64,000 bases of DNA from Massalongia carnosa (taxonomy: Eukaryota), in assembly GCA_965645245.1 (NCBI GenBank), contig OZ287071.1:930001-994000 (forward strand), in the 5' to 3' direction. The notes under the pieces are model-generated. The model saw only the letters and a program-made list of their open reading frames with translations. It was not told the DNA's origin and did not search any database. Both the position numbers and the translations under genes were made by a program. Of the stretch, positions 5,443 to 33,407 are shown in pieces (within the stretch, counting starts at the first letter, position 1; every line of letters starts with the position of its first letter).

Positions 5443-6087
5443 TTTGGCGACAGCAGCGAAAGTGCCGCCGTCGGTCAAGCTCCTGATATTCTGGGAGGGC
5501 AGGAGGGTTAGTTCACTTCCCTTTTATTGGAGTTTCCGGTGTTTAGTCAGCAACCTGCAAGATTCAGCGGCAATCTAAACTCTCTACGCTGTGGGTTTCT
5601 ACCAACCAAATGTAAGTATTCAAATGTAGAGATTTTAGGTCATTCCTTGAAGGAAATTTACAAAATCATTTGTACCTCTAGGCTTCGCATTCAAGTATTG
5701 TATTGGCGTTGAGCACCGTGTTGGTTGGCGCGAGTTGAAGGACGGACTTTCGAGATCAAGAGTGGAAAGCTCCGAATGAGCCAGCACTTCATTTGGACTA
5801 ATCTTTAGTACTGCCTGAACTCTAGGTGCCAGCAGCTGACTCCAGTGGTGACAAAAACGCTGGATACTTCACCAGCAGAGATATTTCTCTTCTGCAGCTT
5901 TCAGACTGCCCACGGCAACAGACCCTGTTCAAGCTTGAAACGCGACGAACCACCAAGCCTACTACAACATTAATACATAAAACTGTCACTACTCAGAGAC
6001 CCAGCTATTACAACGTACACATCTAGATATTTAGCTACAAATAGAAAGAAAAGAAGCATCCAGAAAAATCTCAGTATTACGTCAACT

Positions 6088-8200: not shown

Positions 8201-9259
8201 TTACAGTTTGCTTTCTCGTCTCCCTTCAACATAACCCTGCCCCATTCTTAGCATCCCGACTGCTTCTATAACCATCTCATCGATAATCTGCTTTGCAGGT
8301 TTAATATCGTCGATCACAGCAGCGACCTGCCCCATCAGAAATGGAAAATCCACATCTTCGCCGTCATCCATATCCTTCTCCATTGGCACCAACCCCTGTT
8401 CCGTCAACTCCTTAATCTTCTCCTCCTTCGTCTCCCACGCAGCAATGTACTCATTCCTCTTTACCCTCAACGGCCGTCCAGTAACCACCAACGTCTTGAC
8501 CGTATCTTCCCACCCTGCCCCCATCACAGCCTCCTTGTGCATCCGACTCGCCGCCGCCTCCTCGGAGGCCACGAATCTTGTCCCGACCCAAACCCCCACG
8601 GCGCCCATCATCAGCGCTGCGGCTAAGCCCCTCCCATCCCACACTCCTCCCGCCGCAACTACCATTCCCCCCCTACCCCCAAGCATCTTAGGCCTATACT
8701 TCCGTGCCACATCCACACAAGCTGGCACTAGGATATTACCTGCTACCTCGCCCGTATGCCCGCCTCCTTCCCCGCCCTGCGCGCACACCACGTCCACGCC
8801 AGCCGCAAACGCCTTTTCGGCATGCCTCGGCAAACCGACCATATTCATCACCACCACACCGCCCTCATGCAGCCTCTCCACCACCCGTCGCGGCGGTACT
8901 CCCACCGCGCATACGAACAGCCTCGTTCCCTCCTCCACTATCACCTCTACCAGCTCATCCAACCGGCCTCCCGTGTAATCGTGATTTGTCTTCCGCGCTC
9001 CAGCCGCCAACGACGGCAGCGCGAGATCGACGCCAAAAGGCAGCAAGGGGTGACGGAGCGCGAATTTGAGCTCGCGGATCATGGCGCGGAGCTTCTCGGG
9101 GGTATAACCTAGGCCACCAACGACGCCGAGGCCGCCGGCGGAGGAAACGGCGGCGGCGAGGGGGGCGGTGGAGACGTGGGCCATGCCTGCTAGCAATATT
9201 GGGTGAGTGATGGAGAGGAGGCCGCAGAGAGGGGTTGTGAGAAGCAGGCCAGGGGCCAT
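8201..9259 (-). CDS. Nitronate monooxygenase / 2-nitropropane dioxygenase family
   Basis: HPILLAGM, LAAAVSSAGGLG, CAQGGEGGGHTG, VAAGGVWDGRGLAAALMMGAVGVWVGTRF. Likely ATG at 9259. Confidence 0.9.
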   Translation of the reverse strand: MAPGLLLTTPLCGLLSITHPILLAGMAHVSTAPLAAAVSSAGGLGVVGGLGYTPEKLRAMIRELKFALRHPLLPFGVDLALPSLAAGARKTNHDYTGGRLDELVEVIVEEGTRLFVCAVGVPPRRVVERLHEGGVVVMNMVGLPRHAEKAFAAGVDVVCAQGGEGGGHTGEVAGNILVPACVDVARKYRPKMLGGRGGMVVAAGGVWDGRGLAAALMMGAVGVWVGTRFVASEEAAASRMHKEAVMGAGWEDTVKTLVVTGRPLRVKRNEYIAAWETKEEKIKELTEQGLVPMEKDMDDGEDVDFPFLMGQVAAVIDDIKPAKQIIDEMVIEAVGMLRMGQGYVEGRRESKL

Positions 9260-10559
9260 TTTGTGGGAAAGCGGGTTTGGGAGGCCTGATGGGGAACCCT
9301 TGTTTGTAGCTGGGTCAGGGATGGGGTGGATTTGAAGTTCTCGCGTCGAGAAGCGATGCTGACCGAGGTCATGGTTCAAAAACTGAATGGGATTTCGTCC
9401 TTAAGGTAGATCAGTGACTCCCGTGATGGTTTTTTCATGGTTCCTTCCTTCCTAAACGGATAATATCGCAGGTAAGCAATGTATCAACGAGCCGAGGTTT
9501 ATATGCGCACCTTACATCACCCAGCGGAGAGTAGGGCTCAGCCCTTGCACTAATCCATTTCTGCATCTAAAGTGGCACTAGGTATCATACTACAGGTACA
9601 ACTAGTTATACAATATACAACGCAACTAGCCGCTATATTAGGGAGTAAGACAGCTTCTCCTGGGTTTCTAGGCGTAAATACAACATTCAGTACACTAAAG
9701 CTCTATTTCAAAGCTACTCGTATTGTTTAGTTGTTTTCTTACATGAGAACCACTCCGCTTCTCCTCCGCTTCAGCCCGCCAGCCACATTGCTGGTCGATC
9801 ACGAGGGCCTGCCGGATCAAATCGGGGTTACTCTCTCCAGAGAAGGCCACCGACCCCCTTTCGTGCCCCTTCAATAGATCATTAGGTATCTCTTTATCAA
9901 TGCAATCATTCTCCTTGAATTCCATTTACAATTTCGGAAACAAACCCCTTAGGTCCATTCAGGGCCATATCATGAAAATTTCCTGCTCGCGTTGGCTGGT
10001 ATCGTATTTTCTTTTACTCTGCTCTCCTTTAGTGATTTGCTTTCGCTATATGGTATCTAAGGGGGTGAGGGGGTGGATTCGAGATCTAGCCAATATGCGT
10101 GGCTTGGCGCTTCCTTGTATCATGCCGTGCGCCACATGTGTGCTTCCAAGCCTTCTGTCTACAAAGCACTCATTCTAGATTAGACGCCCCTTTTGCATCC
10201 CTGTAGGTAGTAACATGGATTTTGCTGCGAGTAAAAAGAGAAAAGATTAGGATGGGCTTGAACAAGGAGGAGCAAAACCAAAACCTACATCGTCGCAGAA
10301 ATAAACAGGAGTGGGTAGGGTGGAAGTTCGGGGAGATTTATCGAAAAGCCACTGCTCTATATCTAGGCGAGTGTAAAAATTATTCAGTCCTTAAACGGCA
10401 ACGAGCAGTCTTGAGAAAATTCAGCAACATATCCCATCAGACCCCCCCAAATATAGAAAAGCTGCATATCTTCATATATCCTGCCCCCTTCTGATATTAT
10501 AAAATTACATCATTTGTATCCAACCTCCGTTAGCGCCTGATGCCCCCCTAAAAGTTCCC

Positions 10560-12842
10560 TCATCGTACACTCCTTGCACTAAGGCTCGCAAATGCATCGG
10601 GACTGTGCCGTCCAAGTTGGAACCCCCCAATATCAACGCCTTCGTGACTCGCGTTTCTTCCCACGCCGTTTCCGTTCATGGTCCGAGCCCCACCGCCGGC
10701 AACGTTTATGGGTGCTGGTAAGGCGGCAGACGCAGTGCTTGAAGAATTTTGATTAAATGGGTTTCTGCTACCTGAGGAGAGTTGCAGGGGCATAGTGACG
10801 CTTCTTTGCGCTGGCTTTGGGGTAACACCTTCGGAGAGGGTGGGTAAGGGGTCGATTTTGGTTGTTAGTGCTGAGGAAGTCTGATTGGCGGAGTTATCGT
10901 ATTGGTAGGCGGTGGCTTGAGAGGAAGGAGCCAGATGTGGGTAATTGTATAGGGCCAAAATGCTGGATTTGTTGATGCGGCCGGTTTGTTGGGGCTGAAG
11001 AGGTGGCGGTGTGTAATCCATATGTTGGGAAATCTGTGGTGGTAAGTGAGGTGTGGGTTGAAGATTCTGAGGGTTATGCTGGTTTAGGGAGGGTTGTTGA
11101 ATGGCGTAGGGGTTTGACTGTAGAAAGTTTTGCGGTTGGGTGGTGGGTTGAGCGTATACTATGTGTGAATGGGTTTGCATCTGGATTTGAGATTGATGAT
11201 GTTCTGGTTTTTGCAGCTGTGAGTAATTATCCGGGAATGGCGAAGAATGCCCGTTGATAGACTGCTGAAGTGTACCAGCTTGATTGGAAATCTGTGTGGT
11301 TGCATAAGGATTATACAACGTTCCAAAAGATTGTTGCTGAGAGGCATTTGGGAATGGGCTTGAAGGCAAAGATGATACCTGCGGCGCTGTGAAAAATGGG
11401 TTATAATGAGCGGTTTGAATTTGCGTGTGTTGCGCGTACGGGTTAGATTGAAAGTACTGATGAGGGACCTGAGGCACAGGAGGGGTCATGGATTGCTGAA
11501 GTCGTGGTTCGGAAAGGGGCTGGGGTTGGCTCGGATATCCACCAGTGGCATTAGGAAATAGGGGTTGCGATATTTGCATGCCCTCGAAAGCCCTTTCCAC
11601 ATTGTATGTAGCACTTTGTGGCTGGGAAGTCTCAAGTGCATTATATAGTTGGGTTTGGAAAGGGTTCAAAAATGGGACATTGCCCGTATCCCGGTCTTGT
11701 GGCTGAGCAAAATTTTGAGTTTTCGGTGGTCCACCGTAGCTGGCCTGCGGTAGTGGAGCTGGCTCATTGGCTGCGGCAGAAATTCCAAAGGCCAGCCCCG
11801 ATTGCTCCCTGTTGAAAAGTAAAGGCTGGCTGACTGCGATATTTCCGCCTTGCATCGACGTCCTTGCCCCTGAAGTGGGGGCACTTCCTTCTCCCAATCT
11901 GACAAGAGACTCGATTGCTTGCTCAAGATTGCCACTTAACCCTTTTAAAACATTCATGTTGCGTTTTTCATCCGGGAACCCCATATCTCTTAACGTAGCC
12001 AATTTCGATTCCAAGTCTTCTCCGCCGCCACCTACGCTGACACCAAATACCCGAGATTGTTTATTTACCCGAATAGGTGACGAGGGAAATCGATAGCCAT
12101 TTGGATCATCAGGGGATCTTGGAGGAGAATTGGAGTCTAGCTTCGATGACGTAAAAGCCGATGATCGAGATCGCAGTCCAAAACCAAAACGTTTCCCAGG
12201 CTTGGGTGGTAAAGGAGGCGGCTGATCGTCCGAGCTACGGGTGCTATCAGAATCCTGGCGCTGAGCTGCACGGGCGGATCCTCCAGAGAAGATTTGCTGG
12301 TCATATTTCTGCCTTATAAACCTCTCCAATGCCGCATCTACCTCATCGACATCAAGGGGAATCGCTGGCTTGGTATTTTGAGGATTGTAGATGCGGTTGG
12401 AATTGACATTTCCATTCCGCTTCATGCTCTAAAGCTAACATCAGCACCAGCATAATTATCGGCTTAGAAGCTCTTACATCAACTTGATCATTTGACCAAC
12501 TATCCATGCTCAACGATTTGACCTTTGATATGTGCGTCCCAAGCTTCCGATGGAGAGAGGCGCATCGCATGCACAAAAATATTCCAAGCTAGAAGCCACG
12601 GCTGTTAGCAACTGCTATATCTATACTAAGCGCTCCGAATGCAGTTGATAGCTTACACTCCAGCTTGCCCATCCTATGGAGGAAGATTTAGTCTTTACTA
12701 CATACCGGCAGACAGGGGAAAAGATACCTGGGTTTCTGGCCTGGCACTCAGCGCATCTATCATTTCCAGGTACTGTTTTAATCAACTCTTGCAAGGCTCT
12801 TTCGTTACGCGCCTGATGGCGCTTGCTCAAGGAAGTTGTCAT
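10560..12842 (-). CDS. ArfGAP + UBA domain protein (Gts1/Ucp3-like)
   Basis: Exons encode GNDRCAECQARNP, WASWS and CMRCASLHRKLGTHISKVKSLSMDSW (ArfGAP zinc finger), the UBA-like LATLRDMGF...GNLEQAIESL, and a Q/P-rich tail with NPF/NPY motifs. Confidence 0.88.
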
Positions 12843-14237
12843 AATGGGGTTCAGTCAGAGTTGTGGACTACTCCAAATCCACATTCACCACGATTCCTTA
12901 CTCTAATTAGTCATTCAATGAAAGGAGGCTTGCGTAATTTAGTGATATGTAATACATAGAAGAAATAGGCAACACTGTCCTATGTACGAGCGCAATATAA
13001 TATGCTCTTCATCGAAAAGGAGAAATGTTGACGATGGTTGGCAGAAAGACCAGACACGGCCCAAAGAACCCTAATTCGCTAGTGGGTAAGCGCTAGTCCT
13101 TTATTGGCTTCACACATTGTCCAATTAAAGGAAACCTCCGGCACCGAGTTTTCATTTAACTTATGTATGAGTACTCCGTATTATGTGTCAATACATCTTC
13201 AGCCTTTTGCTCTTTAAGCAGCCAACAGTCAACCTATGCACGCCTCGTTGCAGAGATTTTGGACATGAGTTGCTACAGATTGAATACGGCCTATTACTAA
13301 TCATAACTAGCACCTCTCAAAGCAAACCAAGATTTCCATTGTTACATGTATCGAAAAAGGAAGCTTTTGAAGTCCGATTTAGCCCTCTGGTCATGTCAAG
13401 CCAGAAGTATGGGGCTGCGGCCTAGCATTTCATTCGAGTATATCTCAAGATATGGCTAACCCAAAGCTCACGTAATATGTTAGCACTATAAGCCCTTTTG
13501 CTTATTTGGCGTTTTATGTTAGGATAAGATTCGGCATTGATCACTGTTGTTTCATTGACCCTAAGTTCCGGGTTATAGTCCATATTCTGCTTTATCTGGA
13601 GTTTACACCAACACTTATTGTATTGTGGCGGATAAGCTGTTAAAATTCTCCAAACGTTTAAGCGCCTGATCTATGTCATATATCTGGTTATAAGAATGAT
13701 TGAAAGGAATGGATTAAGATCTCAACGTCTTCAGGGATTGCGTTTTCACCTACGGTTCCGTTCTTGGTGGTATAATGAGGGCCTGCGGGAACAAACCTCT
13801 TCTCCATTGGAAGAGTGAGACGAAAATAATATTTGCGATGTTAGAAAGCCAACACAACCATCTCTTTGCACAAAAGGCCTACTACACAACGAATTCCGAA
13901 AGTTAGAAATAATGCCTTGGGAGATTTGGTCACATCGCTAATGTGGCAGATCGCCTTACCTTGAGCGATTTACTGCCTGGTGGACCCAATGGAGGAGGCT
14001 GGCAAGCTATGCTTTGAAAGTATTCATTAGAGTAACGATTGTTATGAATGAAGACTTTATTGCTCAGCAAGGTGATCGCAGAGTCTAGTCTATGGCATTT
14101 CCTTAAGAAATATTGATTGCAAGGTATCATCTATGAACTTATGCAATAGAGAAAGACAGCAACAATATCGAACCTTGTCCCTCCACAGACCGTCGAGGAA
14201 GATAACCGTCCAGGCAGGCAATTGTTAAGTCTCAACG

Positions 14238-14644
14238 CTACTTATCTGCAATGGGGAAGTCCTTGCCGGTTGTGCTCTTGTACTTCCCACGAATAAAGTC
14301 GGAGATCTGCTCGTCCTTTGCCTGCTCGATGGCCGACTCGTTGCTTTGGTTCCCACGTCCCATCGCTTGCTGGGCATAGTCCACTCCTATTTATAGGAGC
14401 AAAGCGCTTGTCAGTCACGTTATTTCAAAGAGCAGAATGGAAGAAAGACACTTAACGGACCTTTATCAAGGAAGTCCTCGTTCTTCTCACTCTCTGGACC
14501 TCCTCCGGCAGCCGCATTGAGCTTGTTACCAATACCACCAAGGAATCCTCCACCACCTTCTGCTTTCTCAGTGGGTTGGCCTTGCGGGCCGCCCTCGACC
14601 TGCTTCTGTTCGCCCGTACCGGCAGCTTTTCTTAGGTAATCCAT
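14238..14644 (-). CDS. Small conserved hydrophilic fungal protein (two exons)
   Basis: MDYLRKAAG...GFLGGIGNKLNAAAGGGPESEKNEDFLDKG, one intron, then VDYAQQAMGRGNQSNESAIEQAKDEQISDFIRGKYKSTTGKDFPIADK*. Confidence 0.8.
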
Positions 14645-22637: not shown

Positions 22638-23820
22638 TGAAGTTGCTGAAGGAATCTTTTGGCGAGGCAGATCGAGCTTCAAATGAGCCTAGGAAGAGGC
22701 GCTTACGTTCATTAAGGTTACTCGTTCTAATATTGATTCGAATCGGTGCGGTGAGTAAGTTGATGTATATGTAAGGGGGCAGAAGGATATGTTCAGGGCT
22801 AAGAGATTGTGGAAAAACGGAGTTTTGAAATGAAAAATGTGAACTGTCTTATGTGTTTGGTGACAACACTCGACTCTCGGTTCTGGGTAAAGAGTGAAAT
22901 AGGACAAAGAAAGACAACACAAGGCTTTGATCAAAGATATGAAAGACAGAGAATGTCGTAAGTTCTTTGTGGCCTGGTCGAGGAAGCAGAACACTTGTCC
23001 GAGTTAATTCAACAAAGTGGTGAGGCTCAGAGTGGATCACATTCACCAAGAAAACGGCAATCAAATTGTCCCAAGCGGGGGATTATCAAGAAACGAGAAT
23101 AAACGATGGAGTTGCGGTTCAAGATGGCTAGCTATATACTAACCACAATGATTGCTAGCACACTAAACAGAACAGTAGCTTATCACCAGGATTCGCTGAG
23201 TGAACACTCTAATCACCGTCCCAGTGCCCTGCGGGAGCTTAATCACTAAACTCACCTGGGAGTACAGCTCCAGCCTCTAGGTTCAATAGTATACTCAGTA
23301 AAACGAGCTGTGGCAGAGCTGTTCAGAGCTAGCTTATTTGGTTTTTATGATGAGGCCTAGCTATCTCATTTTGAGGTGGTCAGTGCCTGAGCGGTCCAGC
23401 GTCGTCGATCCTTCTGGGTTGATGTCATTTACCAGGTCAATCACTTCGAGACCTCTTGGGAGGTGAAGATAACACGTACCTGTGTCATCAATACATTTTA
23501 TATGTTGGTAGAGAAAAACGAGCGTACGAAAGTATGGTCTACCCCTAACCTAACCTAGAAGATTAGGGTTTTGGTATCACAAGATGCTGTTTCAGAATAG
23601 GAAAAGCGTAGGACCAATGCATCTCATCTACTCCTAGGAACACATTCTCATCATCCGAATAACTCGCCCGTGGGGGTCTAGATTCATTAGGAAAAGGATG
23701 TGAAGAGTAAAAAAGGAGGAAGCTGCTATCTCACGAGTCCGAGATTAAGCTTATACAATATTCAGACGAGCTCGTTCGAGCAGGCTCTCATAATTACGGC
23801 GTTACGGATAACGTGTAAAA

Positions 23821-24511
23821 ATGGTGGATCACAACTCATGTTGATGCCCAACGCACGTGCTAATCACTTCGACAGGCACCCAAGAATCTCCCTCCTTTAG
23901 CGAAACAGTCTCTCATCCTCAACTACTTGCAAAACTCCCTGACCGTGCATTCGCTCAAAGACCTTGAAAAATACCTCCCGTCGGTGGCCTCCATTAACGG
24001 CATGCAAGTCAAAGAGTATCTCCAAGCCCTCAGCGACGAAGGGAAAATCCGCGTGGAGAAAATCGGCTGCGGCAATTGGTACTGGAGCTTTCTCAGCGAA
24101 GAGAAGAAAACGCGCGACAACGTGCTTGAGCAGCTGAGGGAAGAGAAAGACAAGATCGACGCTGCAATGCAAGAACTGCGTGAGAAAGTCACGGAGGCTA
24201 ATGGCCTGCGAGAGGAAGGGGAGGAAGGTAGAGCGGAGCTGGTCACCGTACAAGCCGATTTGGTGCAAGAGGTCATCTTATTGAAGGAAGAGTTGGACCA
24301 ATACCGGGACGGCGATCCTGGGGAATTGGACAGGAAACGGGAAGAGATTCGGGCTTTCAGAGCGAAGGCGGAGCAATGGACGGACAATTTAGGAATCCTT
24401 GAGGGGTGGTTGGCAAAGGCTCTGGGCGGTGATAGGGAGAGGATGGAGGGCATTAGACGGACGTATTACGGGGATGAATATGTAGAAGGGGAAGGTTTGA
24501 AGGAGTTGTGA
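23821..24511 (+). CDS. MND1: Meiotic nuclear division protein Mnd1
   Basis: HSLKDLEKYLP, MQVKEYLQALSDEGKIRVEKIGCGNWYWSF, AEQWTDN. ATG at 23821 followed by an intron 23824-23875. Confidence 0.88.
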
Positions 24512-25853
24512 AGACATAAGGTAACATATTTTAAAGTATTTACGGATAGGAGTTAGTAAAACATAAAGCTTCTATGGAATTTAGCTGCGCAAGTTAAATT
24601 AGGTGTTGAGTCAAGCAAAACAAGACCTACGCGACTAGACATGCCATGTTAGAGTCGATTTTTGGGAGAAGGTGTAGGATGGATGACTAGTAGTTTGATG
24701 TGGGTTGAGGCATCGAGTTAGAAGGCTTTCTAATTACTTAAGAGAGCGCGAAGAGGGAACTTATTTGGGGGTAGATCCAAACATAGAAAGGGAGGTTGAC
24801 TGACAAACAAATCTGTCCGGTAAGGCACTGACATGAAGGATTATGTCATCTGGTGTTTTAATTTGTATGAATTCGACAAAGATGTGTGGAACATCTTTGG
24901 CTACGGAGTACATACTTTGCCATCAGTTTAACTAGTTAGCAAAATGAAGGAGCATAGGAGTGAGTAACTACATTGTGCGTTAAGAACTAGGCCTGGGAAA
25001 GTAGCGCTAGATATTTCAACCTAGCGATATATATCATTTAGCGCTATTTATCGCTATATATCAATCATTTTTATACACTACACCCTGTAGATGATCAAGA
25101 TTTCTTTCTGTATAATATTAATAGTATTGATGCAGCTATTCTACGTTCCTTTATTATCTTTTGTCACCTTCTTGTCATTCCTTCATTGTCGTTGATTATT
25201 TTTTACACTCGGACGCGGGCGGGCCGAGCCCAAAAAAAATCTCGGTAAGTTTTTACTTGCCTCAGTACCTCAGACCTGCCTTGCCTTCGCCACAGCTAAG
25301 CCTTTTCGGATTAGTATATAATTAGTCAGAAGCTAAGTCAATTTAGTTAAATGTTTAACTGTTTTAGGATAAGATTCTATTTAGCTTACTACGCATGCTT
25401 CGGGCGGCAGGTCTGAGTTCAAAACTCTGTAATTTTGTCAGGTTCTCGTTATTTTGGTGACAACACACGTAAGTTTAGCGCTTAAGATTTAAAATCATCG
25501 TTTTTCACGTTTAAGATAAGATCAATGACAACGCATGATAGTTGTAATATAATACGTTATTGTCGTCGCTACTTAAAGATATGCTTTATTAAGTGATCTA
25601 AAATTTAAACATCCTGCGTGCGTTGCGCAGTTATCTTCATCATCGAGCAACATCGACTCAAATTGACTCTCAAATCTCGACGACAGCACAACAACTTCGA
25701 ATTGAGTCTTGCTCTTCAATTCAACAATCGGCGCTCATATTCATCATATTGCCTTGGCGGACATGTTATCGTAGTTCTTCAGGACTTCAAACTCAAAAAT
25801 ATAGTCGTCGTCCTTGCTAGCGTGCTTTCTTGTTGTAGCGATATTACATCAAT

Positions 25854-26223
25854 ATGAGTGACGCGATACAGATATTGACTCGTGAGAAGATCGAGAGCGT
25901 TGTTGATCAGTATTTCGGATTTCGTCCAAAGAGGAAGCAGGTGGATGCGCTTCATCATCTGTTGTGTGATAGGATGGATTTGATCTTGATAGCAAAAACA
26001 GGTTTCGGAAAGAGCATACTGTTTCAAGCTGCTTCTTTGATGTTTTCGCCTTGCAAGTCAGTGTTGATAATCATGCCTTTGATTGCACTGGAAGAGGAGC
26101 AATGTGAAAAAAACCTCTTCAAACGCCTCGTCGACCTTCACCGGAGTTAACGTCTATCGCCTCAAGGGAGCTGCCCGATTCTCGCTCCGGGCGAAAAAGA
26201 AGGCGACCAGCTTACCTGGATGA
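25854..26223 (+). pseudogene. RecQ-like SF2 helicase remnant (N-terminal motifs only)
   Basis: FGFRPKRKQVDAL (Q motif), DLILIAKTGFGKSILFQ (motif I), IIMPLIALEEEQ (Ia). Breaks off near 26110, before DExH; a possible C-terminal remnant ends at TGA 26221-26223. Confidence 0.8.
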
Positions 26224-26290
26224 GTGATGGCGGACAGCAAAGCCGCGCGGCGCGGATTTGCTCCTCCGGTGAGCGATGAATAGAACGGGT

Positions 26291-28646
26291 TTAATCAACA
26301 AACATACCGCCTGAGGGTTCCAGCGTACTTGCTGGAAGGGTGAGGCTTTCAGGTGCTTCACTGGTTTCGTTTGCGAGTCCAAGTTCAACATCCTTTTCAT
26401 GATCGTCAAGGGGTACCGTTTCACTTATGTAATGTCGATTGTACTTCATCGAGCTCTCACCCAGGCGAGCGAGGCCTTCCATATAAAGGTTAACTGTCGG
26501 ATTCATCGAAAATCGATTCCCATTGACCTCCACGAGCGACTTAGAGGCCAGTTGCAAAGCCATACTCCATATGTCCTCGGCGGCGGATTTCGCGGAATGT
26601 TTTGAAGAATTAGCCCTTCCGAACATAAATTCGACCGCGGCTTTAACTTCCAGTAAATAAGGCCCGTTCATTGCCCAGTCTTCCAGTAATTTATCGCTAT
26701 TCTTCGAAAAAAAAGATCGTTCTCGCTGAAATGTCTTAAGATTATTGTTTAATAATTCCAAAAGCCGATCGGTTTCATAATTTGAATCCTCATTGCCTCG
26801 TAGATTGACTAAACTGTTAGCCAAAATTGCATCTTGCAGCTCCAGGGTCGCAGCCGGTGAATCGGTCATGTGAAGAACCCGTAGCAACACCTGCGCGTAA
26901 TTGGGAGTTCCAGCCGACTCTGCTTGAAACATCATCATCACCTGACGCAGGGCCCGTCGAAGCAGTCCAATATCCGCATGTTTGATGGCATATCGAAGAG
27001 TCAAATACAGTTCCACATGGGCGCAAAAATTCTGATGATTACGAAATTCTTGATCGAGCGCTGGCGGTTCGGCATCAGCTGTCGTCGACGGAGGCGGCGC
27101 GTGGATTTGATCATTTATTCGAGTCAGGGCATTCATCTATGACCTTGACACGCTGAAACACTGTGCCTCAAACCAATGTATGGTATCTTAATTCGTGTGA
27201 ATGAACATTTCTCACGTCGGGCGAGCCGAATCCACGTGCCAACGATGCGAGCTTGATACTGTGAATGATCAAATCCTCCAGCGCCTGAAAGTCGTTTGGT
27301 TGGACTACCCGAGAATGGCCCCATCGATCGGCGGCGTACTGAAGTGTGGAGGGGTCGGCAGGTCGGGCCTGACCCCAATGTATGCTAGGAAATTTGAAGT
27401 CGCTGAATTTAGCGTTGTAAAGGGCTTGAATTGCCGACTCAACATGATGAATTTGAATATTGATACACATTTCATCAGTTTCAAGTAAACAGTTTGAAAG
27501 AATGGTCGATGCTTACCTGCGCATCTATGTTGTCTGGTTTTAATCTTAATGCGAGTTCCATGGCGGACAAAGGATAATTATCAGGTTGCCACATATCCTG
27601 TCTCAAGGTCGTTGCCCCAAGGCCCTGTCCTTCAAACATTAAGGCGGTCGTAATTGATCGAAACTCTCTTACGTCACCGATTCTCTCGCCTCTTCGACCT
27701 TCCGCATAATCAAAATTATCATAGGTTACAACTGTAGTTGAAGCCCGCCCTATCGTCCTTACCTTTCGCGCCGCTTCGTCGCTTAAGGTTGACATGCGCC
27801 GTTGAAGGGTGGGATACGACATTGTCAAGCCAAGTTGACATAAAGTATCCAGAACCCTGCGCCTGGCGCCACCCTGATAGATATAAAGACCCATGATGCT
27901 CTGAAAGTTTGTTGACGTATTGGGGCGCAACATGTGACAAAGAAGGGACAGTATAGTCAACTGCCGTCCGGCCGGAATAGCGCGCTGAGAATAAGTGGAC
28001 TCGTCTCGGTGAACATCGCAACAGGCGCGCTGAATGAGATCTATCCATCGTGGCGCCTTACTCGTGATAACCGCCGCGGCGCCCTTGAAGCTATTTAAGG
28101 TGCCCAGCTCGTCGGTCTCCGAAGGCGGGTGAAAAACCCCAAAGGCGGCCGTAGCAATCAGTGCATTGAGCTCCGCTCGAAGGGCCTGCACGACCCAAGT
28201 CCAACCCTGTTCATGAAGAATGGCTGCTGCTCGATCCTTCCCAATAAGCTCACCTAGTCCTTCGTCTTTCATCATTTCAACATAGGCGAAATCCATAAAT
28301 TGAGCCTGTCCAGCCCGCATGCGGTGACGCCCTCGATATTTTAGCAATGTAGAGAGAAAATCCTTGATTGTCCATTTCAGGTTCCGAATATGCTCCATCA
28401 ACTCAAGAAGTTTACCCCAATCATCCAAACGACGTCGTGATCGTCCTCGTCGTTTTCGGCGTTCCTTAGATCGCCTTGAGGACGACGCACGGAGGAAGGA
28501 ATCAGAATAATCATGACCGCTGGAAGTTGATTGAGGGCGCCTTAAAGGAGTTTGGCTTTCTGGCAGTGAAGGGTTGAAACTCTCGAGGTCAGGGGACTTG
28601 TCAAATGGTCGGTGGGCGAGGAGGCGCTGGCTTCGGGTGAGGCCAT
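26291..28646 (-). pseudogene. DUF6589-like putative DDE transposase (Academ/Dada-type), frameshifted, central part missing
   Basis: FQSIMGLYIYQGGARRRVLDTLCQLGLTMSY, VVTYDNFDY, LRYAIKHADIG, NYAQVLL, AILANSLVNLRG...YETDRLLELLNNNLK. One GTAAGC intron near 27516. The expected GDQ/GxxH segment is not seen. Confidence 0.65.
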
Positions 28647-28854
28647 GATGAAGTCAATGTTTTTTTTTGCGCAGGGATCGCTCGATGAAGGCAAACTTCT
28701 GTGGACAGGTGACCTTTCCTTTGTTTACATACGTTGTACCTATCTACTCCGTACAACTGCAGGGTATAGCCATGTAAGTTTATGCTGCGCTAGGTCGATC
28801 CGCGCCGCGCGGCTCCATTAACACAAGAGACTAGCTCAAAAACAGGCACGCTAA

Positions 28855-30323
28855 CTAAACAGGCTTGACGCAGGCATAATTATTTACGAAAAAACTATCC
28901 TCTCCAAACATCAATCTCTCCGCCATTTTCACTCTTCCATACGCGGCCTTGAAACTGCGCAAAGCGTTCAACCTATGGTTCTGTATTGCCTCTTGCTAAC
29001 TTGCGATCTTCTCCCAGTATTACGTTTGCCTGCGCTTGAACGACAGGGTCCTCCCAGCTTGTCCGACAGACGAGCGCGTGACTGATAGGAGAATCAAGCC
29101 AGAGCTGAGTGGATGGTGGAAACTTATGGGATAGGCCCGCGTCAGACGGTTCTGCCTTGGTACGTCGGCGTGCAAGAAGAGGGCGAGACGCTGGACAATG
29201 TCGAGTCCGATAAATGGAGTGACCTCGCAAGGGCGCATGCTAGTCAAACAGCACCCAGAGTCACTCCTTCAGGACTCACGAATCGATTTGGGCCGTTTCC
29301 TTTGTTTGGAGTCGAACCATGAAGGATTTCTGGCTTCGTGACTCTCACGTCTCCTCTTTTGCAGGGAACAGGAATAAAGTCTCCAAACCGAGCGGCATCC
29401 TCTTTGATCCATATTTTTTCAAGGCCATGTACGTGTCCATCCGGGACCTCTCCACGAGCGCACATGTTATTCCACCACTGGGCAATGTGTAGATGAAAAC
29501 CAGGGACTATTTTAGTGCACCCCTCGGCGGTCTCATCATCAAGCGACACCGAACCTTGAATGATGTTGCCCCCATGACCATTATCCAGATATTTTGGTAC
29601 GTTAACATCAATATGGCGAAAAAAAGTTGGATCTCCCTCCCGTGTATACTTCGCGTAATACGGATATGATACCAATCGAATATTGCGATCGGGACGGAGG
29701 CACGCGTACAGTGCCCAGTATTCGATGTCTTGACGGATCAACTGTTGGGTTAAAGAGTAATACATAGTTCGTAACCATCCACGATTCGACTGACCATTCC
29801 TCTCCCGCTGATGCCACTGATAAATGTCGAACTCTTCGAGTATCAGATCTCAGATTCCGGTCTCTACTTCGTCTTTGGATTTTATCCCTTTCCACAACCA
29901 ATCAAACATGTCTTTAACAATTAGATTTCCATCTTTCATCCAGAGATCCCAAGCGAACTCTCCTCCAATCTCGTCGACTATGATTTTGGCTTGCTCCTCA
30001 TTGAGCCCTCTTATCAGAGATGATCTCGTTGCTCGTTTGTAATAGACGCCAAGAGCATCATCATCAACCCTCGGTCTAGCACATAAACGAAACCAGAAGC
30101 TTGTCTCCCGTCCTGTTTTCAGATCATCGAGGTTGGAACGATGATGATGACAAGACTTGAGCCTCTGCCTTAACTATTCTGCATTCAAATTATTGACTTG
30201 AAGACCGAAATGTCCGCCTATAGCTAGAAGATGACGATAGCAGACGTGAGTTAACTCCTCTCTGTGGATAACTGCAGACATTGTTTTTCTAAGAGTGCCT
30301 AGATACTCTGCGTCACCTTTCAT
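28855..30323 (-). pseudogene. 2OG-Fe(II) dioxygenase (PhyH-like fold) cargo gene with stops, frameshifts and an internal inversion
   Basis: EEFDIYQWH...GWLRTMYYS...FFRHIDVN (HxD), IQGSVSLDD, IVPGFH, GDVRVTKPEILHGST (distal His). The next residues RQTVLPWY lie on the opposite strand (29134-29294). C-terminus ...ERLMFGEDSFF. Confidence 0.7.
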
Positions 30324-31217
30324 TCCTGCCGCTGAGGCAGTCTTTTACAATCCGGCCTTCCTTTGAAGAATTTAAGTGTGAAGGATTTAGCTTCAAGATA
30401 GACTACAAAGCCGAGGTCCAGCTCCCGGCTGGCGATCCAGAAGACCCGACAGATTTTTCAGGTTCTAGCAAACGCGGCAAAGCTGCAAAAACCTCCAAGG
30501 ACATCAAGACCCCGAAGGCCGCCAAAATCAAAAGCGCCAAATCCAACCTTGGACCGGTAGAGGCGGCCAATAAATCAGCGAAAAAGGCAGCCAAAGGAAG
30601 AAAGAGGTATAGACCACATGTCATGTGGCAAATCCGCGCAGTGCGGCTTTGCCGTGGATAGTCTAGCTATAGAGATGCACTAGCTAATTATGAATCAATG
30701 ACCGACTGCAACCGACTTTCTCTTACTATTTTTCGTGACCCAAATCGATGTCCATTGTAGACTGAGACCCGGGCTTTTTGTCCAGCTTGCATCGAGTTTA
30801 AAAAGCATGCTCGCCATCCCTTGATGTCGTTCTTTAGTGCACATATTCGACCGCGAGGTTCCAAAACATAAAAATAACACATATAAAAAACGGCGGTATG
30901 GTATAACATGATTGAGTTGATATTTTACAATCAATCGGGTAAGGCCGCTCGATAATTAAGTATTATTTCATTTATTAAGCAAACCTGCCCGTATTATTGA
31001 GTTTTGTCCTCAGACGTGTAAGCACAGCGAACTTAGTAAGCAAAGCCTAACTTTAAAGGATTAGGCATATAAGCTAAATAAGTTAGCGCCGAGTTAACCG
31101 AAAGAGGTTAGTGCAGGTGAAAGCTGTGCCACAACACGTCTGAGGTACTGAGGCAAGTTTTTACTTGATTGTAGATGACCCCAAGGCGATACATACATGA
31201 TTATATCATCTACTATT

Positions 31218-32096
31218 GATGATGATGATGATGTATTCATACTCCGATATGTCACCGGCCGTAGGCCGGCCCATGCGGGCAAAGCTATCTAATTTATGTT
31301 ACATGGAAAACCTTTTGCAGGTGTAAAAACCATATCCCTTGATATCTGTCCGATGTGATACCGGGTCGATGTCGGACAGGAGACGCAGAGCGAAAATATT
31401 GTGAGAAGTGTGACGCCTTGTGAGATGGGAAGGAAAAGAGAAGTGAAACTACTGTTCATTGTACAATAGTGTAGATGCCAGTGAGAATTGGGTCAGTAGA
31501 CCTGTTTTCATTAGCCAAGCAGTTAATATCTTTAGAGTTTTTGATGTTTCGGTTAGCTGTTGATAGTTGTTCGTGCCAGCGGCGCGAAACATCTATTCTC
31601 TATTGTCAATAAGTCTACAGAACATAATTACGTGTTCTGGAGTTTGTCTGTGCCAGCCACATGGGCAGGCCAGTGAGGTGACGGCGGGGACCCGTCGCTG
31701 GTAGAGGAAGTCAGCTAGACCGATCTTGCCGGTGCGGATCTGTGTTGTCAGGGCGCTTTCTGCCTTTTTTAGCAGCGTGTGTACTTTCAGTCGTTTTTTG
31801 CTCAGTGGGACTGATTGCGCTATAGAGGGTTCGGTGAGGCGATTTTGATATGCGCTCCACGAGTCGTTCCAGACTTTCAGCTGTCGTGCTTTAATTGTCT
31901 GCATTTGTTTTTGACGAGCTAACGCTGCTACGGAGACTTCGCGGAGATGCGCTGAGGGGGTGTCGGACCATGGTGGGTGTGCTTTGGGTGGTTGAACGAT
32001 TTTTGCGTTGATCAGTAGGTTTTTGGCCCAGTTGTGCTTCAGCTCTCCCGGAGTGGATTTTTGAAAGTGTTTGCGACCTGCTTGCCTCGGAGTTTG
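31218..32096 (-). mobile_element. 5'-truncated Tad1-like LINE (ORF2 C-terminus + 3' UTR)
   Basis: KAESALTTQIRTGKIGLADFLYQRRVP...CPCGWHRQTPEHVIMFC and an (ATC)n tail. 13-bp TSD ATCATCTACTATT at 31205-31217 and 32097-32109. Confidence 0.9.
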
Positions 32097-32138
32097 ATCA
32101 TCTACTATTAGTTTGACAGAAATTCTTAAATCAAAATT

Positions 32139-33407
32139 ATGGGAAACATCAAAGGCCCCGTCCACGAGCAGTTCACCACCGAAGCCAATGAGCTAGGTGC
32201 CTTTAAAACCACCCGCGTACGATGCAAACACTGCGGCCATTTCCTCGTTGAGCAAGCAAATAGAATGACAAATCATCTCGAGAAATGTCTTCCGTATAGG
32301 CAGTCTTTAGCAAGAAAAAACAAGACTACGGATATCAGCGCAAACGTTCATAAGTGTGGACCGATCGAGCAACAGAGGTTGGACAAGCTGGCAGGCATGG
32401 CAATCTTGGCTGAACGACTTCCATTCAGTACTCTTGATAAATGGATCAAGCCTGATTTGTGGGAATTCATTCATGCATTGAACACAGCATATAAAGTTCC
32501 TAATCGTCATCGTGTTGCTGAGGAACTACTTCCTCAATGTTATAATCAGGTATCGTCAGATGTCAAAGAGCTTCTAGGAGATGTTCAGTTCCTCAATTTT
32601 GTCTGTGATGAGTCCGATGATAAAGCACGTCGTCGCATAGCAAATCTATTAGTAAACACTCCTCAGCAAGGTGCATTCTTCTTACGGAACTTTCATACAA
32701 AAGACAAAAATCAAACAGCGTCCTTCTTGACTTCTCTTATTATTCCGGAAATTATCGAGGCTTGCAATAATGATCTCAGTCGCTTCAATAGTTTAGCTAC
32801 TGATACTTGTGCAGTCATGAGAGTCATGCATCACTTGATGAAACAAGACCCACGATTTTCTCATGTGTTCTTTGTACTTTGCGACTCTCATGAAATTCAA
32901 CTATTGATTAAACAGATTCTTGAATTATTATACTATGCAAAATTGATAAAAAATGCGCAAATTATTGTTGCTGGATTTGCTCATAGCAGATTGCAATTGA
33001 GTATTCTTTGAGAGCATCAGCAATCTTTGTACAATGAAAAGATCATGTCTTTAATTATTTCGGTTATTACACGATGGGGAACGCAATATGACCTCTTTAA
33101 ATCCTTGCTTCGATTTAAGGATGCACTGAGAGCTTATGCGGCGGACACTCGTGCTTCTCTTATGTTCAGTAAAAAGACATCTTCTATTGGCTATTTGATA
33201 ATTTGTTTTGACAAGCTATCAGGGAAATCTTGCGTCTCATTCATGAAGCCCAAAAACCATCTGAGTCAGACGGATCACACTTGGGTCATGTAATCAAACG
33301 ATGATTTGACATTAAAGGAGCACTCACACGCTTGAAGGATCGACTCGGCAATCCTTTCTTTAGTTTGGAGGAAGTATGCAGATTCGATGATATATGAGAC
33401 GATCTCT
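32139..33407 (+). pseudogene. hAT transposase, N-terminal part (BED zinc finger, DDE core)
   Basis: RVRCKHC...RMTNHLEKC, NFVCDES, LATDTCAVM, LCDSHEIQL (CxxH), VITRWGT. In-frame stops; interrupted by the LINE. Confidence 0.88.

What the first reader, a model, noticed from the sequence alone, without database searches (positions are those of the whole stretch)
25258..31155. AcademH-like transposon in an ascomycete carrying a 2OG-Fe(II) dioxygenase cargo
Seen: perfect TIRs and a flanking direct repeat enclose a RecQ-like helicase remnant (+), a convergent DUF6589-like transposase (-) and a PhyH-fold dioxygenase with HxD...H...R (-). Known: AcademH elements encode a transposase plus a RecQ-related helicase and make 9-10 bp TSDs; fungal KDZ/Plavaka transposons travel with TET/JBP 2OG dioxygenases. 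Inference: this is a deletion derivative of a helicase + transposase + dioxygenase element whose oxygenase may act on nucleic acid or chromatin marks (e.g. countering silencing). I do not know this combination as described, and the substrate is unknown.
Basis: partly seen in the sequence, partly recalled or inferred. Interest (0 to 1): 0.82.

Follow-up and report, generated by a model that had tools for sequence, protein, structure and literature searches.

The report
Dead Academ-type transposon carrying a dioxygenase
This is a broken copy of a multi-copy jumping gene of a lichen-type fungus whose intact relatives encode a cut-and-paste enzyme, a DNA helicase and, unusually, an iron-dependent oxygenase that also rides inside unrelated retrotransposons, so the oxygenase looks like a tool that mobile elements pass around.

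Summary
The element at 25260-31153 ends in perfect 16-nt inverted repeats and sits in a 13-nt direct repeat. Public contigs of the same and a related fungus hold the precise empty site.

It contains:
- an 88-residue RecQ-like helicase start;
- a DUF6589 gene;
- a PhyH-type Fe(II)/2-oxoglutarate dioxygenase gene;
- the tail of a fourth gene.

All four are broken, so this copy cannot move on its own.

The family is real and multi-copy. It has MITE-like and internally deleted derivatives. Relatives in lichen metagenomes (L001-L003) carry the same terminus next to the fourth gene and an intact long dioxygenase ORF. L001 also has an intact DUF6589 gene.

DUF6589 folds as a DDE transposase with an insertion domain (Hermes Z 11.1). 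It shares three signature motifs (DNxD, GDQ, DxxxE) with a published Academ profile, compared by eye. An AcademH-like classification is therefore supported; the duplication length (8, 10 or 12 bp) is unresolved.

New here: homologues of the dioxygenase are mostly TE-borne. Eleven of 51 loci place it beside Ty3/gypsy gag-pol, and its catalytic residues are invariant. Its fold neighbours are small-molecule hydroxylases, not TET/JBP or AlkB. The substrate is unknown.

The parts
25247..25259 (.). Left copy of the 13-nt direct repeat AAGTTTTTACTTG. This is the target-site duplication; its last 1-3 nt may belong to the terminus.
   Evidence: D9. The empty-site joint 25246->31155 has 13 shared letters.
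25257..25278 (+). Left terminal inverted repeat. The perfect 16-nt core is 25260-25275. TTGCC is shared by all five termini seen.
   Evidence: (I2).
25269..25417 (.). Left fold-back end. The inner half of the TIR (25269-25280) is repeated inverted at 25406-25417.
   Evidence: MITE-like joints at 25399, 25408 and 25410.
25854..26111 (+). 5' remnant (about 88 codons) of a RecQ-like SF2 helicase gene, cut off by a deletion at 26111.
   Evidence: Pfam DEAD 4.5e-7. WRN, RecQ, RECQ4 and RECQ5 are the best solved relatives. Contigs of X1, X3 and X4 run on with other sequence behind 26111 (table 7).
26237..26261 (.). Palindromic GC-rich 25-nt motif, 30 nt behind the stop of the DUF6589 gene.
   Evidence: (I1, I5).
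26291..28646 (-). DUF6589 (Academ-type DDE transposase) pseudogene. It has a 1-nt deletion at 28570, lacks about 106 codons including the GDQ-type motif, and changes frame near 27258 and 27181.
   Evidence: Pfam. Alignment A2. tblastn with the L001 protein. table 4.
28798..28814 (.). Partial copy (17 nt, perfect) of the palindromic motif, behind the dioxygenase gene.
   Evidence: I5.
28888..30383 (-). PhyH-type Fe(II)/2OG dioxygenase pseudogene. It has an in-frame TAG (30174-30176) and TGA (29850-29852), an inverted segment at about 29130-29300, a frame change near 28991, and its 5' part is deleted.
   Evidence: Opposite-strand joints at 29129/29294 in X1, X4 and X5.
30260..30661 (+). C-terminal remnant of the fourth gene ('gene3', Lys/Ser-rich, no Pfam family). 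It is divergent from the dioxygenase gene. The deletion junction lies near 30345-30383.
   Evidence: tblastn with the L001 and L003 gene3 proteins. (no family). Contigs end at 30345/30348.
30628..30652 (.). Third copy of the palindromic motif, at the end of gene3.
   Evidence: (I1).
31008..31145 (.). Right fold-back end. 31008-31018 is the inverted copy of 31135-31145.
   Evidence: MITE-like joints at 31016, 31025 and 31035.
31135..31156 (-). Right terminal inverted repeat (perfect core 31138-31153).
   Evidence: (I2).
31155..31167 (.). Right copy of the 13-nt direct repeat.

Best explanation
The region is a dead, non-autonomous copy of a multi-copy cut-and-paste DNA transposon family of lichen-forming ascomycetes.

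Intact members encode four genes between about 20-nt terminal inverted repeats with fold-back subtermini:
- a Lys/Ser-rich protein of unknown role;
- a long (about 880 aa) PhyH-type Fe(II)/2-oxoglutarate dioxygenase;
- a DDE transposase, about 800 aa (Pfam DUF6589, here assigned to the Academ type);
- a convergently oriented RecQ-like helicase.

Shown here: the ends, the duplication, the empty site, multi-copy status, the deletion derivatives, the DDE fold, and the conserved position of the dioxygenase next to one terminus.

Inferred: the transposase binds the repeats, cuts the element out and inserts it with a staggered cut of 8-12 bp. The helicase helps to process or repair DNA during this. 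The dioxygenase is a catalytically active accessory factor that benefits the element. Its substrate is unknown; it most likely hydroxylates or demethylates a host or element macromolecule.

The same dioxygenase family is also carried as an extra ORF by Ty3/gypsy retrotransposons, so it behaves as a module exchanged between TE classes.
For: Ends and insertion; empty-site joints in X1, X4 and X3.

Multi-copy family:
- Summed contig depth over the two ends is about 25-30 times that of the flank.
- MITE-like joints: 25399->31016, 25408->31025, 25410->31035.
- Four other internal-deletion joints (all).
- Dioxygenase fragments at 90% identity or more on six different Mb-size contigs.

Relatives:
- L001 has the identical terminus at 5710, gene3, an 879-aa dioxygenase ORF and DUF6589 (E 1.5e-60) in the window's order and orientation.
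- L002 and L003 have a related terminus, gene3 and the dioxygenase.
- The same palindromic motif follows the genes in the window, L001 and L003, and a weak copy (6 of 25 mismatches) follows the dioxygenase in L002. It is found in no other of the 51 loci.

Transposase:
- AF2 model: pLDDT 81, pTM 0.80.
- Hermes Z 11.1 (299 aligned), P element 10.6 (340), ISCth4 9.5, RAG1 8.6, Transib 8.5. The top 31 entries listed are all DDE transposases.
- Motifs [YW]DN[FL][DE], GDQ[KL][TS] and D-x3-E match profile nodes 2-6 (f-D-N-w-D), 190-192 (g-D-Q) and 450-454 (D-e-a-l-E) of the Academ HMM in the supplement of PMC5751038.

Helicase.

Dioxygenase:
- H225, D227, H323 and R334 are invariant in 27 sequences, including retrotransposon-borne ones.
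- PhyH-superfamily fold: GriE 6.7e-8, human PhyH 3.3e-6.
- gag/pol lies on the same strand beside it in 11 of 51 loci, and inside 92%-identical 300-nt LTRs in L011.
Against: - Only 1 of 51 dioxygenase loci has DUF6589 beside it. The link to this transposase is therefore confined to one clade, and in L002 and L003 a Helitron follows the dioxygenase instead.
- No locus shows a complete element with both ends and a full helicase. L001 ends 264 nt behind the transposase gene.
- The Academ assignment rests on three motifs compared by eye on 158 of 465 profile positions.
- KolobokH elements of fungi also carry RecQ helicases (PMC9587614 passage).
- The duplication length is ambiguous (8, 10 or 12 bp), against 9-10 bp reported for AcademH (PMC10045372 passage).
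- The empty-site contig has about twice the depth of the unique flank in X1 and X4, so it may be a paralogous copy of a low-copy repeat rather than an allele.
- Nothing shows what the dioxygenase acts on. Its structural neighbours act on small molecules.
Confidence: 0.8

Rival explanations
1. The dioxygenase and gene3 are not working parts of the transposon. They are a captured or nested piece: a transduplicated host gene, or a fragment of another element such as a Ty3/gypsy retrotransposon. This piece happened to be fixed in one lineage of the transposon and has no role in its life.
For: The same dioxygenase family sits mostly in other contexts: Ty3/gypsy in 11 of 51 loci and DUF6589 in 1 of 51. 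Its fold neighbours are metabolic hydroxylases. In L002 and L003 the block terminus-gene3-dioxygenase exists without a transposase gene nearby.
Against: The block keeps its place and orientation next to the terminus in four elements whose proteins differ by 30-40%. The 879-aa ORF in L001 is open. The catalytic residues are invariant across 27 sequences. All three genes of the element share the same palindromic motif behind their stops. The terminus-linked sequences form one clade with SH-aLRT 100 (quick tree).
Confidence: 0.12
2. The element belongs to another DDE superfamily that also recruited a RecQ helicase (KolobokH-like, or a helicase-bearing relative of hAT, P or MULE), not to Academ.
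For: KolobokH is fungal and encodes RecQ. The best structural matches are hAT (Hermes), P element and IS256-type transposases. No Academ or Kolobok structure exists for comparison. The Academ motif match is by eye only.
Against: The doublet DN at the first catalytic Asp, GDQ at the second and D-x3-E at the third are all present in the Academ profile at comparable spacing. The duplication is not TTAA, which I recall as the Kolobok duplication. No Pfam hAT, THAP or MULE family hit the proteins.
Confidence: 0.12
3. The inverted and direct repeats are chance, and the three ORFs are ordinary degenerating neighbours.
For: Short inverted repeats are common: 43 pairs of 12 nt or more were found in 8.5 kb.
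Against: The exact 16-mer occurs only at the two ends. The same terminus is found in L001. The empty site has a single copy of the 13-mer, and MITE-like end-to-end derivatives exist.
Confidence: 0.01

Closest known systems
AcademH lineage of the Academ superfamily (Kojima 2020, Mob DNA 11:15; paper not held, known to me only through citing passages in PMC10045372 and PMC10799480 and from recall)
   Same: A fungal DNA transposon with TIRs, a DDE transposase carrying the DNxD, GDQ and DxxxE motifs of the Academ profile, a RecQ-related helicase gene, low-to-moderate copy number, and a long duplication (10 bp is one of the three possible readings).
   Different: It has two further conserved genes: the PhyH-type dioxygenase and a Lys/Ser-rich protein. 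A palindromic motif follows each gene, and the ends fold back. The duplication may be 8 or 12 bp. Whether Kojima's families include such genes could not be checked.
KolobokH (fungal Kolobok lineage with RecQ helicase; PMC9587614, passage read)
   Same: A fungal DDE transposon that recruited a RecQ helicase.
   Different: In KolobokH the helicase is fused downstream of the transposase domain; here it is a separate, convergent gene. Kolobok makes TTAA duplications (recalled). The C/DxxH signature reported for Kolobok, hAT, P, MuDR and Dada is not evident here: the aligned position reads [GA]xxH in A2.
KDZ / Plavaka transposons with TET/JBP dioxygenases (Iyer et al. 2014, PNAS; recalled, seen only in the reference list of PMC5751038)
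   Same: Fungal DNA transposons that travel with a Fe(II)/2OG dioxygenase gene.
   Different: The transposase family is different, and so is the dioxygenase family (PhyH superfamily, not TET/JBP). No evidence for a DNA-base substrate here.
Orchid Ty3/Gypsy elements with an AlkB m6A RNA demethylase ORF (PMC9289625, abstract read)
   Same: An LTR retrotransposon lineage with an extra ORF for a Fe(II)/2OG dioxygenase, as in loci L006, L011, L018, L019, L024 and L028.
   Different: Those are plant elements of the AlkB family with demonstrated RNA demethylase activity. Here the elements are fungal, the family is PhyH, the activity is untested, and the same family also occurs in a DNA transposon.
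hAT (Hermes) and P element transposases
   Same: RNase H-like DDE core interrupted by an all-helical insertion domain (Z 11.1 and 10.6).
   Different: Sequence identity is only 10-12% and no Pfam hAT or THAP family is hit. The first-Asp motif is DN, not the D-x-W or DE that I recall for those families.

Membership tests
Academ superfamily / AcademH lineage | DDE transposase with the Academ RNase H signature | tested here: met
   The family has [YW]DN[FL][DE], GDQ[KL][TS] and D-x3-E-x2-N (A2 and A3). The Academ HMM consensus (supplement of PMC5751038) has f-D-N-w-D at nodes 2-6, g-D-Q at 190-192 and D-e-a-l-E at 450-454. This was compared by eye on 158 of 465 nodes; no score was computed. In the window's own copy the GDQ region is deleted.
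Academ superfamily / AcademH lineage | RecQ-related helicase gene inside the element | tested here: met
   An 88-codon 5' remnant at 25854-26111: DEAD E 4.5e-7; WRN 3e-5 and RecQ 6e-3. Other copies continue past 26111. A full-length helicase of this family was not seen.
Academ superfamily / AcademH lineage | Target-site duplication of 9-10 bp (PMC10045372 passage) | tested here: inconclusive
   The 13-nt direct repeat overlaps the palindromic terminus, so 12, 10 or 8 bp fit, depending on whether the TIR starts at G, TG or TTG. All five termini share TTGCC. The empty site does not discriminate between these.
Academ superfamily / AcademH lineage | Groups with Repbase Academ/AcademH transposases in a tree or scored profile search | not testable with these tools
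   No Repbase sequences are on hand. Kojima 2020 and Yuan & Wessler 2011 are not held.
Pfam DUF6589 (PF20231) | Match above the gathering score (27 bits) | tested here: met
   Window 26291-27136: 97.6 bits, E 8.5e-28, profile positions 253-410. L001: 205.5 bits, positions 37-410. 9 of 25 scanned relatives matched.
DDE/RNase H-like cut-and-paste transposases with insertion domain | RNase H-like core with an all-helical insertion before the catalytic Glu | tested here: met
   Model of P0199: pLDDT 81. Hermes Z 11.1, rmsd 6.1, 299 aligned. P element Z 10.6, 340 aligned. The top 31 entries listed are all DDE transposases. Foldseek best E 1.7e-3.
PhyH superfamily Fe(II)/2OG dioxygenases (PF05721) | HxD...H iron triad plus Arg about 11 residues after the distal His, on a jelly-roll fold | tested here: met
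   Pfam PhyH 33.9 bits, cut-off 22. H225, D227, H323 and R334 invariant in 27 sequences. Foldseek GriE 6.7e-8, EctD 2.7e-6, human PhyH 3.3e-6. In the window copy the Arg lies on the inverted segment.
TET/JBP or AlkB nucleic-acid dioxygenases | Sequence-profile membership | tested here: not met
   A Pfam scan at E up to 0.1 gave only PhyH. The 56 homologues carry PF05721 or nothing. No TET, JBP or AlkB entry is among the 50 Foldseek rows shown, which by itself does not exclude a distant relation.
Ty3/gypsy LTR retrotransposons carrying the dioxygenase (relatives, not the window) | gag-protease, RT-RNase H-integrase and the dioxygenase ORF on one strand between LTRs | tested here: met
   L006, L018, L024 and L028 domains. 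L011 has 300-nt direct repeats, 92% identical, 10.6 kb apart, enclosing pol and the dioxygenase. The 127-167-nt end repeats of L006, L018 and L024 may be assembly cycles. Overall tally: 11 of 51 loci.

The most novel reading that the evidence does not exclude
A PhyH-type Fe(II)/2OG dioxygenase is an adaptive module for mobile elements. It has been exchanged between unrelated fungal TE classes (Academ-type DNA transposons and Ty3/gypsy retrotransposons, often beside Helitrons). It acts on a modification of DNA, RNA or chromatin proteins to blunt host silencing. This would be a third, independent case after TET/JBP with KDZ and AlkB with plant Gypsy elements and viruses. The conserved palindrome behind each gene would mark the element's genes as separately regulated or separately exchangeable cassettes.
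Probability: 0.2. Interest if true: 0.85.

Novelty: new variant of a known kind. Interest (0 to 1): 0.62.

Why it matters
- It gives Pfam DUF6589, a large fungal family of unknown function, a concrete identity as a DDE transposase of the Academ type. In the library searched here only one paper mentions the name, and that paper suggests these proteins may be virulence factors or regulators.
- It adds two conserved accessory genes and a recurring palindrome to the picture of helicase-bearing Academ elements.
- It reveals a dioxygenase family whose members are predominantly TE-borne across two TE classes, with intact catalytic residues. That makes 'what do transposons gain from an oxygenase?' directly testable with a defined enzyme.
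- For genome annotation, these ORFs should be masked as TE genes, not counted as metabolic or effector genes.

Tried and rejected
Searches that gave little or nothing:
- no whole genome is held for this window, so copies could not be collected from an assembly.
- word-index search with the N-terminal transposase ORF among longer proteins found none.
- the protein atlas gave no usable hit for the C-terminal DUF6589 piece (best score 0.76).
- the atlas only confirmed PhyH.
- the helicase fragment found only 3 short relatives (190-197 aa), so no full-length helicase of this family was obtained.
- a DUF6589 profile against PDB sequences gave nothing (best E 0.55).
- the dioxygenase profile against PDB sequences gave only a weak AviO1 match (E 0.023).
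- no Rfam family in 24000-33000.
- no earlier notes on this genome; no earlier finding holds the words DUF6589 or Academ, and the eight findings shown are unrelated.

Literature:
- Kojima 2020 and Yuan & Wessler 2011 are not held.
- The held supplements of PMC10799480 contain none of PF20231, DUF6589 or Academ.
- Searches for PF20231, for retrotransposon + phytanoyl-CoA dioxygenase + fungi, for PhyH + transposon + helicase + fungal and for PF05721 + transposable elements found nothing relevant.

Sequencing runs:
- No RNA holder is listed among the runs, so expression is untested.

Readings considered and dropped:
- I first read the gaps between the three DUF6589 ORFs as two introns. Comparison with L001 shows that the second is a pair of frame changes and that about 106 codons are missing.
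- I considered that the 28-nt inverted repeat 26234/30628 marks a nested inner transposon. I rejected this because the motif is a near-palindrome that recurs behind each gene in relatives too.
- Four Academ HMM stretches read in search of the second Asp (nodes 16-40, 67-91, 118-142, 143-168) showed nothing comparable.


Full report
**1. What is in the window**

Ends.
- The 16-mer CCTCAGTACCTCAGAC occurs exactly twice in 64 kb, at 25260-25275 (+) and 31138-31153 (-).
- With neighbouring bases the arms reach 24 nt at 96% (I2).
- Directly outside lies a 13-nt direct repeat, AAGTTTTTACTTG, at 25247-25259 and 31155-31167.
- Each end is a fold-back of about 150 nt. The inner half of the TIR is repeated in inverted orientation at 25406-25417 on the left and 31008-31018 on the right. 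The two ends differ from each other but stay self-complementary.
- No other copy is in the window, and no whole genome is held.

Content. Pfam assigns three ORF groups:
- a DEAD-box N-terminus at 25839-26150 (+), E 4.5e-7;
- DUF6589 at 26291-27136 (-), E 8.5e-28, with a weak piece at 27168-27512;
- PhyH at 29244-29849 (-), E 5e-8.

The helicase fragment's best solved relatives are all RecQ-family: WRN 3e-5, E. coli RecQ 6e-3, then RECQ4, RECQ5 and RECQ1.

**2. It is a real insertion of a multi-copy family**

Five sequencing runs hold the left flank. Four of them were laid on 23500-33000 (all as contigs).
- Empty site. Contigs of X1 and X4 join 25246 to 31155, skipping 5908 nt, with 13 letters that fit either side. 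This is one copy of the direct repeat with no element. X3 has a near-identical joint (25244->31162).
- Caveat on the empty site. These contigs have about twice the depth of the unique flank (325 against 153 in X1; 61 against 27 in X4), and the unique-flank contigs stop at 25017. The element may therefore sit in one copy of a low-copy repeat, and the empty site may be a paralogue rather than an allele.
- MITE-like derivatives. Further joints link the two fold-back ends directly: 25399->31016, 25408->31025, 25410->31035.
- Other deletion derivatives: 26162->27506, 27063->27982, 27561->30348, 28645->30002.
- Copy number. Summed contig depth over the ends is about 25-30 times that of the flank. 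This is a rough guide only, not a copy number.
- Independent support. Dioxygenase fragments at 90% identity or more lie on six different contigs of 1.9-3.8 Mb.

**3. This copy is dead**

- Helicase. Only about 88 codons remain. Contigs of X1, X3 and X4 run on with other sequence behind 26111 (table 7).
- Transposase. Compared with other copies, one base is missing at 28570, which separates the ATG at 28646 from the main frame (table 4). About 106 codons present in L001, which include the GDQ-type motif, are absent. The frame changes near 27258 and 27181.
- Dioxygenase. It has an in-frame TAG and TGA. The segment at about 29130-29300 is inverted relative to all 47 homologues that reach it and relative to contigs of X1, X4 and X5. 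The frame changes near 28991. The first 76 codons or more are gone.
- Fourth gene. Only the last part survives (30260-30661, +). The junction with the truncated dioxygenase lies near 30345-30383.

**4. Relatives show the intact plan**

A scan of metagenome contigs with an alignment of the dioxygenase family gave 51 loci.
- L001, from a lichen-metagenome record, carries the identical terminus GCCTCAGTACCTCAGACGTG at 5710 with its own subterminal inverted copy. It is followed by:
  - gene3 (6332-7882, -; no Pfam family);
  - an open 879-aa dioxygenase ORF (8822-11461, +);
  - DUF6589 in two ORFs (11511-12863 and 12844-14355, +; E 1.5e-60).
  This is the window's order and orientation. The contig ends 264 nt later, so the helicase side is unseen.
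- L002 and L003 have a related terminus (3 mismatches of 17), gene3 and the long dioxygenase ORF. They then have a Helitron (Helitron_like_N plus PIF1) instead of the transposase.
- All five termini seen share TTGCC. Because the duplicated target has palindromic ends, the duplication is 12, 10 or 8 bp, depending on whether the TIR starts at G, TG or TTG. The empty site is the same under all three readings.

A conserved palindrome follows the genes.
- Its form is GCAAAGCCGCGC-n-GCGCGGCTTTGC.
- Window: 26237, a partial copy at 28798, and 30628.
- L001: 6177, 11511 and 14356.
- L003: 7269 and 11463, plus two more at the Helitron junction.
- It is absent, at 6 or fewer mismatches of 25, from the other 48 loci and from the rest of the window.
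- Its role is unexplained. It could be a 3'-end or terminator signal, a protein-binding site, or a cassette boundary.

**5. What DUF6589 is**

- Relatives. A full HMMER scan with the N-terminal ORF found 520 relatives at E up to 1e-3 (163 at up to 1e-10).
- Domain layout. Of 25 relatives scanned, 9 carry DUF6589 downstream of the matched region, 15 carry nothing, and one (P0166) is a low-complexity artefact. Full-length proteins are about 600-1060 aa.
- Taxa. Named members come from Schizopora (a basidiomycete), Microthyrium, Sclerophora and Trizodia.
- Model. An AF2 model of P0199 (611 aa; 59-row alignment, deep only over the N-terminal part) reached pLDDT 81 and pTM 0.80.
- Foldseek. The best hits are Hermes (E 1.7e-3), the P element transposase, ISCth4 and RAG1.
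- Realignment:

| Structure | Z | Residues aligned |
|---|---|---|
| Hermes | 11.1 | 299 |
| P element transposase | 10.6 | 340 |
| ISCth4 | 9.5 | 257 |
| RAG1 | 8.6 | 347 |
| Transib | 8.5 | 332 |

  The top 31 entries listed are all DDE transposases, and unrelated proteins start at Z 3.9.
- Conclusion on fold: DUF6589 is a DDE transposase with an insertion domain.

Academ test. I read the Academ RNase H HMM (465 nodes, 44 sequences) printed in the supplement of Muszewska et al. 2017 (PMC5751038). I read nodes 1-40, 67-91, 118-194 and 450-465.

| Catalytic site | Academ HMM consensus | DUF6589 family |
|---|---|---|
| First Asp | f-D-N-w-D, nodes 2-6 (D and N about 0.09-0.10 nats) | [YW]DN[FL][DE] |
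| Second Asp | v-v-l-t-g-D-Q-p-l, nodes 186-194 | l-x-l-x-x-GDQ[KL][TS] |
| Glu | D-e-a-l-E-q-l-i-v-r-d-l-K, nodes 450-462 | [TM]D-x3-E-x2-N-x3-K |

- The spacing is comparable: the first-to-second Asp distance is 137-160 aa in the proteins against 188 nodes in the profile.
- This comparison is by eye, with no score.
- Together with the RecQ-like helicase it supports an AcademH-like assignment.
- A rival remains. KolobokH, also fungal, likewise carries RecQ (PMC9587614 passage).

**6. The dioxygenase**

- The read-through protein found 56 homologues at E up to 1e-3 among 998 candidates. Full-length ones are 470-590 aa. Named ones come from lichen-forming or allied ascomycetes: Caloplaca, Pseudocyphellaria, Endocarpon, Blastenia and Geoglossum.
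- In 27 aligned sequences the residues H225, D227, H323, R334 and T336 are invariant.
- The AF2 model of P0004 (pLDDT 87.9) matches PhyH-superfamily enzymes: GriE 6.7e-8, proline hydroxylase, SnoN and SnoK, EvdO1, EctD, DUF1479 proteins, and human PhyH 3.3e-6. No TET, JBP or AlkB entry is among the 50 rows shown.
- The core is flanked by helical N- and C-terminal extensions. A Cys and a His (C14, H17) are nearly invariant, and a CxC motif lies upstream in the longer forms.

**7. Where the dioxygenase family lives**

Among the 51 loci:

| Neighbour of the dioxygenase | Loci |
|---|---|
| DUF6589 | 1 (L001) |
| gene3 | 3 (L001-L003) |
| Helitron | L002, L003 (and L017, 4 kb away) |
| RecQ-like helicase, 1474 aa, with an OrsD-type N-terminus, directly upstream on the same strand | 1 (L022; RecQ 6.7e-23; pairwise E 9e-6 to the window fragment) |
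| Ty3/gypsy gag and/or pol on the same strand | 11 (L006, L010, L011, L015, L018, L019, L024, L028, L029; weakly L009, L025) |

- In L006, L019 and L028 the long dioxygenase ORF follows pol.
- In L011 it lies with pol between 300-nt direct repeats that are 92% identical and 10.6 kb apart.
- The identical 127-167-nt repeats at the ends of L006, L018 and L024 may be assembly cycles of LTR elements.
- Many of the other loci are too short to judge, and 13 (L039-L051) hold only fragments.
- Tree. In a quick ML tree of 27 rows the three terminus-linked sequences fall in one 12-row clade (SH-aLRT 100), apart from the five rows labelled LTR-linked. The careful search did not finish. The window copy and partial sequences were left out. 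No direction of transfer can be inferred.
- Overall, the family is mainly a passenger of mobile elements of at least two classes. A plant precedent is an AlkB ORF in orchid Ty3/Gypsy elements with shown m6A RNA demethylase activity (PMC9289625, abstract).

**8. Mechanism, with what is shown and what is inferred**

Shown:
- TIRs, the duplication, the empty site, and multi-copy status with MITE-like and deleted derivatives;
- the DDE fold of the DUF6589 family;
- the RecQ-like helicase remnant;
- the conserved block terminus-gene3-dioxygenase(-transposase);
- invariant iron and 2OG ligands.

Inferred:
- cut-and-paste transposition by the DUF6589 enzyme acting on the fold-back ends;
- a helper role of the helicase;
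- a benefit of the dioxygenase to the element.

My best guess for the dioxygenase is oxidation of a host or element macromolecule that affects silencing or element expression (about 0.2). A small-molecule role cannot be excluded from the fold.

**9. Novelty**

- In the library searched, 'DUF6589' occurs in one paper, which suggests these proteins may be virulence factors or regulators, and 'PF20231' in none that is relevant.
- The combinations of PhyH or dioxygenase with transposon terms that I searched gave no fungal case.
- The AcademH paper itself could not be read, so it may already list extra ORFs.
- I rate this a new variant of a known kind.

Noticed in passing
window 31218-32096: A repeat of about 880 bp flanked by 13-nt direct repeats (ATCATCTACTATT at 31205-31217 and 32097-32109). 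It begins with (GAT)n. Contig depth over it is about 500-700 times that of the unique flank in X3, and the empty-site contig lacks it (joint 31217->32120). It looks like a very high-copy SINE or 5'-truncated LINE on the minus strand, 62 nt from the transposon's right end.
   Followed up: partly
window 25017-25246 and 31155-31217: The immediate flanks of the element have about twice the contig depth of the unique sequence to the left, and the unique-flank contigs of X1 and X3 stop at 25017. The transposon seems to sit inside a low-copy repeat.
   Followed up: partly
L002 7468-11283 and L003 11712-15535: A Helitron (Helitron_like_N, DUF6570, PIF1) lies directly behind the dioxygenase gene in both loci. 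It is 95.7% identical between them, while the dioxygenase genes are only 84% identical. Copies of the element's palindromic motif lie at the junction (L003 11717, 11789), recalling the 3' hairpin of Helitrons.
   Followed up: partly
L006 1289-11780; L011 538-11480; L018; L019; L024; L028: Ty3/gypsy retrotransposons that carry a 950-1150-aa ORF ending in the same PhyH-type dioxygenase, beside gag-protease and RT-RNase H-integrase on the same strand.
   Followed up: partly
L022 500-7306: A 1474-aa RecQ-like helicase with an N-terminal OrsD-type domain lies directly upstream of a dioxygenase homologue (34% identity) on an 8-kb soil contig. It may be another helicase-bearing element with the same passenger.
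   Followed up: partly
alignment A1, columns 80-135 (for example L001 about 9850-10060): A CxC motif lies about 35 residues upstream of a nearly invariant C-x2-H, N-terminal to the dioxygenase core. It may be a zinc-binding module; it was not modelled in the longer forms.
   Followed up: no
L003 6686-6702 and 6827-6843: Two terminus-like sequences in direct orientation 141 nt apart, upstream of gene3. In addition, L003 1021-1072 matches the window's left subterminus in the opposite orientation. This suggests stacked or solo ends of the same family.
   Followed up: no
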